Assembly (NCBI GenBank): GCA_902779565.1
Contig: CACZCD010000001.1
Coordinates: 3,929 to 67,928, forward strand
Origin: an uncultured bacterium
Lineage (GTDB): Bacteria > Verrucomicrobiota > Kiritimatiellia > RFP12 > UBA1067
DNA length: 64,000 nucleotides
Direction of reading: 5' to 3'
The stretch's first letter is position 1; every line of letters starts with the position of its first letter. Of this stretch, positions 22,701 through 22,975 are shown in pieces. Both the position numbers and the translations under genes were made by a program. A model generated the notes under the pieces. It did no database searches, had not been told where the DNA came from, and worked only from the letters and a program-made list of their open reading frames with translations.

Positions 22701-22936
22701 AGGCGCTCGCAGGGCGACCGCCCTGCCTCGGACAATCAGCCAGCGAAACCACACAATCCCCAACCACCCTCAACCGTCGCCCCGCACCCCGCGACCACTG
22801 CGTGGCTCGGCCTTCGACCTCGAATGATATCCCTGCGCAATCCCCCGCAGTTCCTCCAATCCACCACTCCTCCAATCACCCAATCCTCACACCCCACCCA
22901 CTCCACACCCGCAGAGCCAGCCTTGAACACCCTAAA

Positions 22937-22975
22937 CGATGTTCATGGTTTATAAACTCTGAACATCGGTTTTTT
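22937..22975 (+). terminator. Rho-independent terminator between the convergent araC-side and yqeY-side transcription units
   Basis: CGATGTTCA-(14 nt loop)-TGAACATCG followed by GTTTTTTG on the plus strand. The minus-strand tail (TTTAGGG) is weaker. Confidence 0.7.

What the first reader, a model, noticed from the sequence alone, without database searches (positions are those of the whole stretch)
22741..22975. G-poor, C/A-rich 190-nt tract ending in a strong intrinsic terminator: candidate sRNA or structured 3' UTR with anti-SD motifs
Between arrays A and B the plus strand is strikingly C/A-rich and G-poor (…CCACACAATCCCCAACCACCCTCAACC…TTCCTCCAATCCACCACTCCTCCAATCACCCAATCCTCACACCCCACCCACTCCACACCC…). 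The tract terminates in a 9-bp stem, 14-nt loop and GTTTTTTG terminator at 22937-22975. It contains two UCCUCC motifs (22852-22857 and 22868-22873) complementary to GGAGG Shine-Dalgarno sequences. C-rich single-stranded regions of this kind are how several known regulatory sRNAs pair with ribosome-binding sites. The complementary strand has runs of GGG/GGGG (GGGTGTGGAGTGGGTGGGGTGTGAGGATTGGG) with G-quadruplex potential. I could not find a convincing promoter. It may instead be the 3' UTR of the AraC mRNA, a common source of sRNAs through processing.
Basis: partly seen in the sequence, partly recalled or inferred. Interest (0 to 1): 0.55.

Follow-up and report, generated by a model that had tools for sequence, protein, structure and literature searches.

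The report
Dispersed C-rich repeat ending in operator palindrome
The C-rich tract is real, but it is not a unique ribosome-site-targeting small RNA: it is one copy of a repeat family from ruminant-gut Kiritimatiellae that sits just after regulator genes and ends in a palindrome that also brackets a lineage-specific ArsR-type regulator gene.

Summary
Window 22836-22913 (C 44, G 4) is the most C>G-skewed 78-nt stretch of the 64 kb on either strand. It is followed by a hairpin (-15.1 kcal/mol) and a run of six T.

The anti-Shine-Dalgarno sRNA reading does not hold:
- Both TCCTCC motifs lie in a 16-nt tandem duplication inside a hypervariable segment.
- A same-species allele (L082) has lost them, and six of nine family copies lack TCCTCC.
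- I found no promoter, no Rfam match and no covariation outside the hairpin.

The tract is the only window copy of a dispersed, roughly 230-nt C-rich element (CRE). The CRE always ends in a 28-bp palindrome (PAL).
- CRE copies lie directly 3' of, and in the sense of, six unrelated transcription-factor genes.
- CRE subtypes are swapped between alleles of this one locus.
- PAL also sits at the promoter and at the stop codon of all 11 tandem-ArsR gene clusters examined, so it looks like their operator.

Most likely function, by inference: a cis-acting transcript-end or insulator module. It would combine a rut-like C-rich RNA with a hairpin/U-tract and a regulator docking site, in the manner of REP/BIME elements. 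Function and strand remain unproven.

The parts
22582..22612 (+). C-rich leader that begins at the AraC stop codon (TAACCGCCCCACCCAATCCCCCACAGCCTTCC). Context, not part of the repeat proper.
   Evidence: This region holds the second most C>G-skewed window of the 64 kb. The leader is conserved, and duplicated around an inserted gene, in sister-species contig L001.
22615..22700 (+). Array A: seven ACGGAC cores in 11-nt register. Context.
22709..22726 (+). GC hairpin GCAGGGC-GACC-GCCCTGC, which closes ACGGAC arrays and precedes full-length CRE copies.
   Evidence: Fold (-14.7 kcal/mol). The same hairpin follows arrays or precedes CRE in L186, L001 and L142.
22724..22819 (+). CRE 5' half, the conserved blocks AATCCCCAACCACCCTCAACCGTCGCCCCGCACCCC and GCGACCACTGCGTGGCTCGGCCTTCG (22791-22816).
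   Evidence: nhmmer match 22724-22975, E = 2.4e-66. This half is 80-94% identical to copies at unrelated loci.
22820..22912 (+). CRE variable segment. It holds the block GATATCCCTGCGCAATCCCCCGC (22826-22848), then the 'type I' CCAATCC-like repeats with the 16-nt tandem repeat (22852-22888) and both TCCTCC motifs. This is the most G-poor part.
   Evidence: Divergence island against L082. The segment is closest to L128, a copy at a different locus (41/47), whereas L082 is closest to L120a (40/43) and L142 (39/43). Tandem repeat. Motifs.
22900..22938 (+). CRE 3' conserved box ACTCCACACCCGCAGAGCCAGCCTTGAACACCCTAAAC, abutting the palindrome.
   Evidence: Conserved in all full copies.
22934..22971 (.). 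PAL: an imperfect palindrome, core 22939-22966 ATGTTCATGGTTTATAAACTCTGAACAT. It is the only copy in the window.
   Evidence: Fifty PAL sites in distinct contexts (32 distinct sequences) in related contigs share invariant CA..GTTT RY AAAC..TG. PAL brackets all 11 tandem-ArsR gene clusters examined.
22967..22976 (+). CGG + T6 tail after the hairpin, which gives it intrinsic-terminator form on the + strand.
   Evidence: The T-run is kept in the orthologous locus (L082, L120a, L186: TTTTTAT; L001: CTTTTTAG) but absent after PALs elsewhere.
23027..23290 (+). Array B (about 20 ACGGAC-type units at 11 nt) plus the shared 3' module. Context. A PAL followed by an array recurs elsewhere.
   Evidence: PAL followed by an array is also seen in L186 and L222.

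Best explanation
What is shown. The tract is the single window copy of a dispersed intergenic repeat confined, so far, to ruminant-gut Kiritimatiellae. The repeat is a roughly 200-nt C-rich, G-poor element (CRE) whose 3' end is always a 28-bp palindrome (PAL). CRE copies have variable 5' truncations. They come in sequence subtypes that are exchanged between loci and between alleles of this very locus. Every copy whose upstream neighbour is a same-sense gene follows a transcription-factor gene (two copies, L001 and L120a, instead abut a divergently oriented gene).

What is inferred. PAL is the recognition site of a lineage-specific single-chain tandem ArsR/SmtB-type regulator, because the promoter and stop codon of that gene family are bracketed by PALs. 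At this locus the module most likely works in cis at the end of the PAS-AraC transcript, between convergent genes. The unstructured C-rich RNA is the kind of substrate Rho loads on. PAL plus the U6 tail forms a hairpin terminator and 3'-end protector. PAL may in addition dock the ArsR-type protein. This is how REP/BIME-type mosaic repeats behave. It is not a trans-acting anti-SD sRNA.
For: Family membership:
- Alignments A2 and A3. nhmmer E-values run from 1e-55 to 1e-71 for six further full copies; there is one copy in the window.

Local recombination:
- Window against L082 is 250/250 identical, then 133 matches, 35 mismatches and 22 gap columns, then 306/310 identical.
- The window's variable segment is closest to L128, a copy at another locus. 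L082's is closest to L120a and L142. L001 carries a third subtype, shared with L168.

Position:
- CRE lies 3' of and in sense with PAS-AraC (window), four XylR-like paralogues that are 25-31% identical to each other, and one GntR/FCD gene.
- It usually faces a convergent gene.

Composition is kept better than sequence:
- The best 78-nt C/G ratio is 2.6-11 directly 5' of PAL in 13 copies, including subtypes that barely align.
- The window value of 11 far exceeds the RhoTermPredict criterion (C/G > 1, hairpin within 150 nt). That paper found C/G of at least 3 in only 37 of about 4,500 E. coli predictions (PMC6407284).

Structure:
- Little predicted structure apart from the terminal hairpin.
- The hairpin is -15.1 kcal/mol and followed by U6, and the U-run is kept in orthologous alleles.

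PAL as operator:
- In 11 of 11 tandem-ArsR clusters (47-100% identity), a PAL ends 37-52 nt (mostly 41) before the ATG, just upstream of an extended -10. Another PAL lies from -17 to +38 nt of the stop.
- One lineage shows a symmetric double change in both arms.
- The protein has two ArsR-type wHTH domains.

REP-like traits:
- An IS is inserted at the PAL centre in two loci.
- REPs are reported as dual 3'UTR terminator/stabiliser elements (bioRxiv 10.64898/2026.03.23.713779).
Against: - No expression data: neither the transcript, its strand, nor a 3' end at 22975 is shown.
- A U-run follows PAL only in this locus. PALs elsewhere lack it, so termination is not a general property of PAL.
- The stem is AT-rich, unlike the GC-rich terminators seen elsewhere in the window.
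- rho was not found in the window (uninformative), and Rho dependence cannot be tested here.
- The rut reading does not explain why the upstream genes are always regulators, nor why the sequence blocks are 80-94% conserved between loci.
- The G-rich strand could be the functional one. The PAL-proximal CRE box, read in reverse, resembles the ArsR-gene promoter flank.
- Several supporting contigs are short metagenome assemblies through repeats and could be chimeric.
Confidence: 0.45

Rival explanations
1. Neutral or selfish repeat. The window copy is a 'solo' relic of a larger module (PAL-tandem ArsR gene-PAL-spacer-PAL-CRE) that spreads by transposition-like or recombination events. It has no function at this locus, and the terminator-like form is incidental.
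For: - Copies have a constant PAL end and variable 5' truncations, with subtypes and mosaic alleles.
- In L120 the same right-hand flank is joined to an ArsR-gene module carrying two direct CRE-PAL copies. Recombination between them would leave a solo copy like the window's.
- ArsR-gene contigs are nearly all short, as expected for repeat-flanked DNA.
- There are IS insertions in PAL.
- RNA covariation is absent.
Against: - In all six copies that follow a same-sense gene, that gene is a transcription factor, which is hard to get by neutral spread.
- C>G composition is kept across subtypes that no longer align.
- No transposase, terminal inverted repeats or target duplications are associated with it.
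Confidence: 0.25
2. PAL-centred regulatory module read on the other side or strand. The tandem-ArsR protein controls a promoter at PAL that fires either antisense into the 3' end of the upstream regulator gene (a G-rich RNA) or rightwards into the ACGGAC array. The C-rich tract is then the template or leader of that unit rather than a 3' UTR.
For: - PAL overlaps the -35 region of every tandem-ArsR promoter at a fixed distance.
- Read on the minus strand, PAL is followed by YGGTT-TA(G/T)G(G/C)T in 8 of 11 copies, which is homologous to the ArsR promoter flank CGGTT-TATGGT-ATAAT (my reading of the sequences printed).
- In L082, L120a and L186 PAL is followed by TTTTTATGCT, a TAnnnT hexamer, then array B. 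PAL followed by an array recurs in L222.
- In L120b, L121 and L208 PAL is followed by TGGCATACT.
- This reading would explain the link to regulator genes.
Against: - In full-length copies the candidate -10 hexamers are poor (TAGGGT, TATTCA). In the window the rightward hexamer is TTTGCT, with no A at position 2.
- The promoter scan finds nothing here.
- No tandem-ArsR gene is in the window.
Confidence: 0.17
3. One reading: a trans-acting sRNA, independent or processed from the AraC 3' UTR, whose single-stranded UCCUCC/C-rich motifs pair with Shine-Dalgarno sequences, as in RsaE/RoxS-type sRNAs.
For: - There are two UCCUCC motifs in a predicted unpaired region.
- A terminator-like 3' end is present.
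- Genes here use AGGAG/GGAGG ribosome sites.
- Multi-copy C-rich RNAs could in principle act in trans.
Against: - The motifs are one tandem duplication. They are lost in the same-species allele and absent from 6 of 9 copies.
- No promoter, no Rfam match, and absent from AraC orthologue loci.
- By my recollection of that literature, C-rich sRNAs such as RsaE/RoxS keep their C-rich motifs strictly conserved across genera (papers located, e.g. PMC6158497 and PMC8216469; I read only titles and abstracts).
Confidence: 0.06
4. DNA-level structure: a G-quadruplex on the minus strand or an i-motif on the plus strand, acting on replication or transcription.
For: There are eleven runs of at least 3 G on the minus strand. 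A four-run pattern is present in 7 of 8 copies.
Against: Run counts equal those of composition-matched random sequences in every copy (P 0.27-0.97). The four-run pattern also appears in 17-79% of simulated sequences.
Confidence: 0.03

Closest known systems
REP/BIME elements (repetitive extragenic palindromes and their mosaic arrangements) with their RAYT genes ('REPtrons'), E. coli and Pseudomonas
   Same: - Dispersed extragenic palindromes combined with other short modules in mosaic patterns.
- Found at gene 3' ends and between convergent genes.
- Variable between strains.
- Used as IS insertion targets.
- A dedicated protein gene is itself flanked by the palindromes.
- Reported cis roles as partial Rho-dependent terminators and mRNA stabilisers (PMC2817692; bioRxiv 10.64898/2026.03.23.713779).
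   Different: - PAL is AT-rich in a GC-rich genome, and there is only one copy in 64 kb.
- The flanked gene is a tandem ArsR-type DNA-binding protein, not a HUH/Y1 transposase.
- PAL sits at a fixed distance from that gene's -10 box, like an operator.
- The roughly 200-nt C-rich arm and its link to regulator genes have no REP counterpart.
Rho utilisation (rut) sites of Rho-dependent terminators
   Same: - At least 78 nt of C-rich, G-poor, unstructured RNA with closely spaced C.
- Untranslated and downstream of a stop codon.
- Followed by a hairpin that could act as a pause or 3'-end structure (criteria from PMC6407284; values).
   Different: - rut sites are not known as conserved, portable repeat units with 80-94% identical sequence blocks.
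- Here an intrinsic-type hairpin/U-tract follows.
- Rho dependence is untested.
C-rich anti-SD sRNAs (RsaE/RoxS of Firmicutes)
   Same: C-rich single-stranded motifs complementary to SD sequences, with a Rho-independent terminator.
   Different: - From my recollection of that literature (papers located, abstracts only), those sRNAs have their own regulated promoter, short length and C-rich motifs that are strictly conserved.
- Here there is no promoter and the motifs vary even within the species. The element is a dispersed repeat attached to gene 3' ends.
ArsR/SmtB-family autoregulated operators (inverted repeats overlapping the regulator's own promoter)
   Same: A palindrome overlaps the -35 region of an ArsR-type gene's promoter. 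Half-site changes are mirrored in both arms in one lineage.
   Different: - The protein is a single-chain tandem of two ArsR-like domains.
- A second site always lies at the stop codon.
- Sites are also dispersed as 'orphans' joined to C-rich elements and repeat arrays.
- No metal-sensing context is evident. The comparison with classical 12-2-12 operators is from memory, not tested.
Modular mosaic repeats such as pneumococcal BOX, Neisseria Correia and enterobacterial ERIC elements
   Same: Composite, strain-variable intergenic repeats with modules in variable number that can carry terminators or promoters and alter flanking gene expression (from general knowledge).
   Different: No terminal inverted repeats or target duplications. 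There is extreme strand asymmetry in composition, and an associated regulator gene family.

Membership tests
Trans-acting C-rich anti-SD sRNA (RsaE/RoxS-like) | Own promoter or defined processing site giving a discrete short RNA | tested here: not met
   There is no sigma-70-like site on the + strand between 22584 and 22975. Processing is not testable.
Trans-acting C-rich anti-SD sRNA (RsaE/RoxS-like) | C-rich/anti-SD seed motifs conserved among relatives | tested here: not met
   TCCTCC is absent in the same-species allele L082 and in 6 of 9 copies; where present, its positions differ.
Trans-acting C-rich anti-SD sRNA (RsaE/RoxS-like) | Match to a curated RNA family | tested here: not met
   Rfam at gathering threshold gave 0 hits in the window. 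An E-value scan of 22500-23350 gave only a chance mir-499 hit, E = 1.1.
Intrinsic (Rho-independent) terminator | Stable stem-loop immediately followed by a U-run | tested here: met
   Hairpin of -15.1 kcal/mol, then GG + U6. The U-run is kept in orthologous alleles. Caveats: the stem is AT-rich, and PAL copies at other loci lack the U-run.
Intrinsic (Rho-independent) terminator | Transcripts actually end there | not testable with these tools
   This needs Term-seq or 3' RACE.
Rho-dependent terminator (rut site) | At least 78 nt with C>G, closely spaced C and little structure, downstream of translation, followed by a pause hairpin within 150 nt | tested here: met
   C 44 and G 4 in 22836-22913, with a maximum C gap of 5 nt. 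The hairpin starts 30 nt downstream. The region is unpaired in the MFE structure. Criteria are from PMC6407284.
Rho-dependent terminator (rut site) | Termination depends on Rho | not testable with these tools
   No rho gene is in the window. This needs an in vitro or reporter assay.
REP/BIME-type dispersed palindromic repeat | Imperfect palindrome, extragenic, many copies in different contexts | tested here: met
   Fifty PAL sites in distinct contexts (32 distinct sequences) in related contigs. Copy number per genome is unknown; there is 1 in this 64 kb.
REP/BIME-type dispersed palindromic repeat | Associated RAYT (HUH/Y1 transposase) gene flanked by the repeats | tested here: not met
   The flanked gene is a 193-aa tandem ArsR/SmtB wHTH protein with no transposase domain.
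MITE | Terminal inverted repeats and target-site duplication | tested here: not met
   The only inverted repeat is PAL itself, and copies are 5'-truncated rather than bounded.
Operator of an autoregulated ArsR/SmtB-type regulator | Inverted repeat overlapping the regulator gene's own promoter, conserved with the gene | tested here: met
   In 11 of 11 clusters the PAL ends 37-52 nt before the ATG, next to an extended -10. This was tested on related loci, not in the window, which has no such gene.
Operator of an autoregulated ArsR/SmtB-type regulator | Protein binds the site | not testable with these tools
   This needs EMSA or footprinting.
G-quadruplex-forming element | G-runs enriched or conserved beyond composition | tested here: not met
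   Run counts equal the composition-matched expectation in all 8 copies.

The most novel reading that the evidence does not exclude
PAL, the tandem-ArsR protein and the C-rich element together form a previously undescribed module. It would be REPtron-like in layout but built around a DNA-binding regulator instead of a transposase. The module would dock at the 3' ends of sugar-responsive transcription-factor genes (AraC/XylR-like, GntR) and control them from behind. The mechanism would be regulated convergent or antisense transcription, or regulated termination at a portable Rho-loading cassette. The window would hold a 'solo' copy answering in trans to that regulator.
Probability: 0.15. Interest if true: 0.65.

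Novelty: new variant of a known kind. Interest (0 to 1): 0.42.

Why it matters
If the cis-terminator/insulator reading is right, this is a portable, sequence-conserved Rho-loading cassette fused to a protein-binding palindrome. That would be a compact natural part for insulating convergent genes, from a phylum (Kiritimatiellota) with almost no described regulatory RNA or DNA elements.

The six-for-six link to transcription-factor genes, and the tandem-ArsR gene bracketed by the same palindrome, hint at a layer of control acting on regulators from their 3' ends.

Practically, the repeat family explains why assemblies of these gut genomes break at such loci. It also shows that striking C-rich 'anti-SD' tracts can be repeat modules rather than sRNA genes.

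Tried and rejected
- Rfam, at gathering and permissive thresholds: nothing.
- Coding potential: the ORFs over the tract are not kept. The ATG of the 43-aa ORF is lost in L082, indels are not multiples of three, and no gene is called there in the ENA contig.
- RNAalifold on seven copies: only PAL and a few short helices. The covariation term is unfavourable (+2.88); 2 of 37 pairs show compensatory change, both in or next to PAL.
- PAL arm covariation: mirrored positions match somewhat more than independent halves would. Mismatches are common at 5/24, 8/21 and 9/20 and relatedness confounds the test, so it does not separate a hairpin from a protein site.
- G-quadruplex/i-motif enrichment: none beyond composition.
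- Phage or mobile origin: the CRE core and PAL gave 0 hits in IMG/VR.
- MITE-like ends: none.
- CsrA, the tandem-ArsR gene and rho in the window: none found.
- 'C-rich flank upstream of every PAL promoter': only a modest C>G excess in 7 of 11 ArsR promoters, so dropped as an argument.
Only about 13 loci were genuine, so copy numbers are lower bounds.
- AraC orthologue loci at 79% and 68% identity carry no such element.
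Full report
**Setting**

The window comes from a ruminant-gut member of the Kiritimatiellae. The closest public contigs that encode the neighbouring AraC-type protein are MAGs labelled Kiritimatiellae or 'uncultured Verrucomicrobia' from sheep and other ruminants.

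The finding lies in a 725-nt gap between convergent genes. On one side is a PAS + AraC-type regulator (21793-22584, +). On the other is a YqeY-like gene (23309-23758, -). On the + strand the gap reads, in order:
- a C-rich leader that starts at the AraC stop;
- array A, seven ACGGAC cores in strict 11-nt register (22615-22700);
- a GC hairpin (22709-22726);
- the C-rich tract;
- a palindromic hairpin followed by T6 (22934-22975);
- array B, about 20 ACGGAC-type units (23027-23252);
- a short module also found at a third array upstream of rpmE.

- The tract 22741-22936 has 96 C and 25 G, and the core 22836-22912 has 44 C and 4 G.
- Among all 78-nt windows on both strands of the 64 kb, 22836-22913 has the largest C-minus-G excess.
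They are two units of one 16-nt tandem repeat.
- The hairpin is a 28-nt near-palindrome. It folds into a roughly 13-bp stem with a 4-nt loop at -15.1 kcal/mol, followed by GG and U6.
- No promoter-like site precedes or lies within the tract on the + strand.
- No Rfam family matches.

**Comparison with the same locus elsewhere**

Two metagenome contigs encode the identical AraC protein. One (L081) is identical across the gap. The other (L082) gives a mosaic picture:
- 22570-22819: 250/250 identical;
- 22820-23008: 133 matches, 35 mismatches and 22 gap columns;
- 23009-23320: 306/310 identical.

The replaced segment includes both TCCTCC motifs, and L082 has none. It also includes the hairpin, which in L082 is a perfect 28-nt palindrome.

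In a sister species (L001, AraC 95% identical) only the last 75 nt or so of the tract align, yet the sequence there is again C/A-rich. At AraC orthologues of 79% and 68% identity there is no such tract.

So the tract is not a conserved feature of the AraC locus, and its putative seed motifs are not conserved even within the species.

**The tract belongs to a dispersed repeat family**

A scan of metagenome contigs with the left arm and centre of the hairpin gave mostly chance hits. About a dozen contigs carried the full palindrome, often several times.

Aligning their flanks shows a conserved element of about 200 nt, here called CRE, that always ends in the palindrome, here called PAL. A profile built from six copies finds:
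- further full or partial copies in contigs obtained independently through a neighbouring protein;
- exactly one copy in the window (22724-22975, E = 2.4e-66).

The CRE has these parts:
- conserved blocks: AATCCCCAWCCACCCTCAACCGYCGCCCCGCACCCC, GCGACCACTGCGTGGCTCGGCCTTCG, GATATTCCTGCGCAATCCCCCGC and CTCCACACCAGCAGAGCCAGCCTTGAATACCCTAACCA;
- a variable C-rich segment that comes in subtypes.

The subtypes cross locus boundaries. The window's variable segment is closest to the copy in L128, at a different locus (41/47). L082's is closest to L120a (40/43) and L142 (39/43). L001 shares a third subtype with L168.

The divergence island between alleles is therefore best explained by exchange with other copies. 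Copies keep a constant PAL end and have different 5' truncations.

**Where copies sit**

Wherever the upstream neighbour is a gene in the same sense, it is a transcription-factor gene that ends within a few to about 200 nt of the CRE (the window has array A in between). These genes are:
- the PAS-AraC gene in the window;
- four XylR-like genes (periplasmic-binding domain + AraC HTH) that are only 25-31% identical to each other (L120b, L208, L128, L142);
- one GntR/FCD gene (L121).

In L128 the last codons of the gene run into the element. Two copies differ: in L001 and L120a the CRE's upstream neighbour is a divergently oriented gene.

In four of these loci the layout is regulator gene, then CRE-PAL, a 110-150-nt spacer, a second PAL, and then a convergent 193-aa gene. 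In L142 the same layout is cut by an IS that inserted at the PAL centre. The same IS end abuts a half-PAL in L222.

**The palindrome is tied to a regulator gene family**

The 193-aa protein consists of two ArsR/SmtB-type winged-helix domains in tandem (Pfam and NCBIfam; weak PDB matches to ArsR-family proteins for each half).

Its family is small: 46 clusters at 90% identity. It is found almost only on short contigs, as expected for DNA flanked by repeats. I fetched contigs for 11 clusters spanning 47-100% identity. In all 11:
- a PAL-like palindrome ends 37-52 nt (mostly 41) before the start codon, just upstream of an extended -10 box such as TGGTATAAT;
- a second PAL lies at or just after the stop codon.

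Other features of PAL:
- Invariant positions are CA..GTTT-RY-AAAC..TG.
- One lineage carries a mirrored double change in both arms (CCGGAG...CTCCGG).
- Some loci carry 3-6 PALs at regular spacing.

The simplest reading is that PAL is the operator of this single-chain pseudo-dimeric regulator. This is inferred, not shown. The window's PAL would then be an orphan site, because neither a second PAL nor the gene is in the 64 kb.

**What the C-rich arm may do**

RNA structure gives little to hold on to. The + strand fold leaves the C-rich core unpaired. A consensus fold of seven copies supports only PAL and a few short helices, with an unfavourable covariation term.

Composition, by contrast, is kept even where sequence is not. 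In 13 PAL-linked copies, including subtypes that barely align, the best 78-nt window just 5' of PAL has a C/G ratio of 2.6-11.

That is the published signature of Rho utilisation sites: at least 78 nt, C>G, closely spaced C, unstructured, untranslated, and followed by a hairpin within 150 nt (PMC6407284). In the E. coli survey in that paper, ratios of at least 3 were rare (37 of about 4,500 predictions).

Three facts point the same way: the sense orientation behind genes, the position between convergent genes, and the hairpin with a U-run kept in the orthologous alleles. The most economical mechanism is therefore a cis-acting transcript-end or insulator module. Rho would load on the C-rich RNA, the PAL hairpin/U-tract would terminate and protect the 3' end, and PAL might add a docking site for the ArsR-type protein. 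This mirrors what is reported for E. coli REP elements, which act as partly Rho-dependent terminators and mRNA stabilisers in 3' UTRs (bioRxiv 10.64898/2026.03.23.713779). REPs also bracket a dedicated gene (PMC2817692), and from general knowledge they attract IS insertions.

**Limits and rivals**

Nothing here shows transcription, strand or 3' ends.
- PALs at other loci are not followed by U-runs, so termination is not intrinsic to PAL.
- The terminator model does not explain the link to regulator genes or the 80-94% conservation of sequence blocks between loci.

A second model fits those facts better but has weak promoter evidence. In it, PAL-controlled promoters fire antisense into the regulator gene's 3' end, or rightwards into the ACGGAC array.
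- In its favour, the PAL-proximal CRE box read in reverse (YGGTT-TAGGGT-ATTCA) resembles the ArsR promoter flank (CGGTT-TATGGT-ATAAT). In three alleles PAL is followed by TTTTTATGCT before array B.
- Against it, the hexamers are poor, and the window allele has TTTGCT.

A third possibility is that the window copy is a functionless solo relic of the larger ArsR module. In L120 the same right-hand flank is joined to such a module, with two direct CRE-PAL copies.

The G-quadruplex idea adds nothing beyond composition. Several supporting contigs are short assemblies through repeats and may be chimeric.

**Verdict**

The anti-SD sRNA interpretation is not supported. The '3' UTR of AraC' alternative is compatible with the data.

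The tract is a new variant of a known kind of object: a mosaic dispersed intergenic repeat of the REP/BIME type. Its unusual traits are an extremely C-rich arm, a palindrome that looks like the operator of a tandem-ArsR regulator, and a consistent position behind transcription-factor genes.

Interest is moderate. The system is coherent and undescribed as far as my searches show, but its function is inferred only from sequence and the organism is uncultured.

Noticed in passing
window 22615-22700, 23027-23252 and 7456-7630 (- strand): There are three arrays of ACGGAC cores in strict 11-nt register with variable 5-nt spacers. Array B and the array upstream of rpmE share the 3' module ACGGACTGGCAACAAACACAAGCACAAGCGCCTTTCCCGCG. 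Similar arrays follow a PAL in L186 and L222, and are closed by the hairpin GC(A/G)GGGCGACCGCCCTGC. The core fits the ANGGA motif of CsrA/Rsm sponge RNAs, but there is no csrA in the window and no Rfam match.
   Followed up: partly
window 4606-4786 and 25360-25435 (- strand sense); similar pair at 35735-35837 (+): The intergenic regions of minus-strand genes carry (AGGTGGAA)n, up to about 10 units, after the upstream gene. They then carry CA-rich (CAACTAY)n leaders immediately before the SD and ATG of the next gene. These look like SD-like repeat arrays plus unstructured leaders.
   Followed up: no
L120 356-937, L208 2511-3092 and nine other loci (L210, L212, L213, L222, L226, L228, L229, L232, L233): This is a lineage-restricted family (46 clusters) of 188-200-aa proteins made of two ArsR/SmtB winged-helix domains. 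Each gene has the palindrome at its promoter and at its stop codon. L228 has six palindromes at 75-nt spacing and L210 has three at 158 nt. L212 lies near dnaA-gidA.
   Followed up: partly
L142 (reverse strand) about 2100-2120; L222 3757-3775: An IS with DUF772 + DDE_Tnp_1 transposase is inserted exactly at the centre of a palindrome (TTTATAG|AGGCACTTGCAAAACC) in L142. The same IS end abuts a half-palindrome in L222. This suggests an IS that targets PAL, as some IS target REPs.
   Followed up: partly
L001 4489-5790: In the sister species a 380-aa ORF on the opposite strand is inserted between AraC and the C-rich element. It looks like an AAA-type ATPase by eye; its Pfam scan failed on wrong coordinates and was not repeated. 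The roughly 35-nt C-rich leader (TAACCGCCCCRYCCAATCCCCCACRGYCTT) is duplicated on both sides. An AAA_14/DUF4143 ATPase gene also lies near the tandem-ArsR gene in L228.
   Followed up: no
window 44008-44127: The 7-nt tandem repeats (GAGGGTT x4.7 and CCTCTTC x6.4) lie inside a 638-aa minus-strand ORF (43524-45440). They would encode a low-complexity charged linker rather than a non-coding element.
   Followed up: no
window 10473-10562: There are two tandem 44-nt units, each containing the hairpin GCAGGGTGCGAC...GTCGCACCCTGC. They may be tandem terminators or another small repeat family.
   Followed up: no
L120 993-1101, L208 3148-3255, L121 1530-1637: A conserved spacer of roughly 110-135 nt lies between two palindromes, downstream of the tandem-ArsR gene. 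It is preceded by a good extended -10 (TGGCATACT) next to the palindrome. It is a candidate small RNA under palindrome control and is not present in the window.
   Followed up: no
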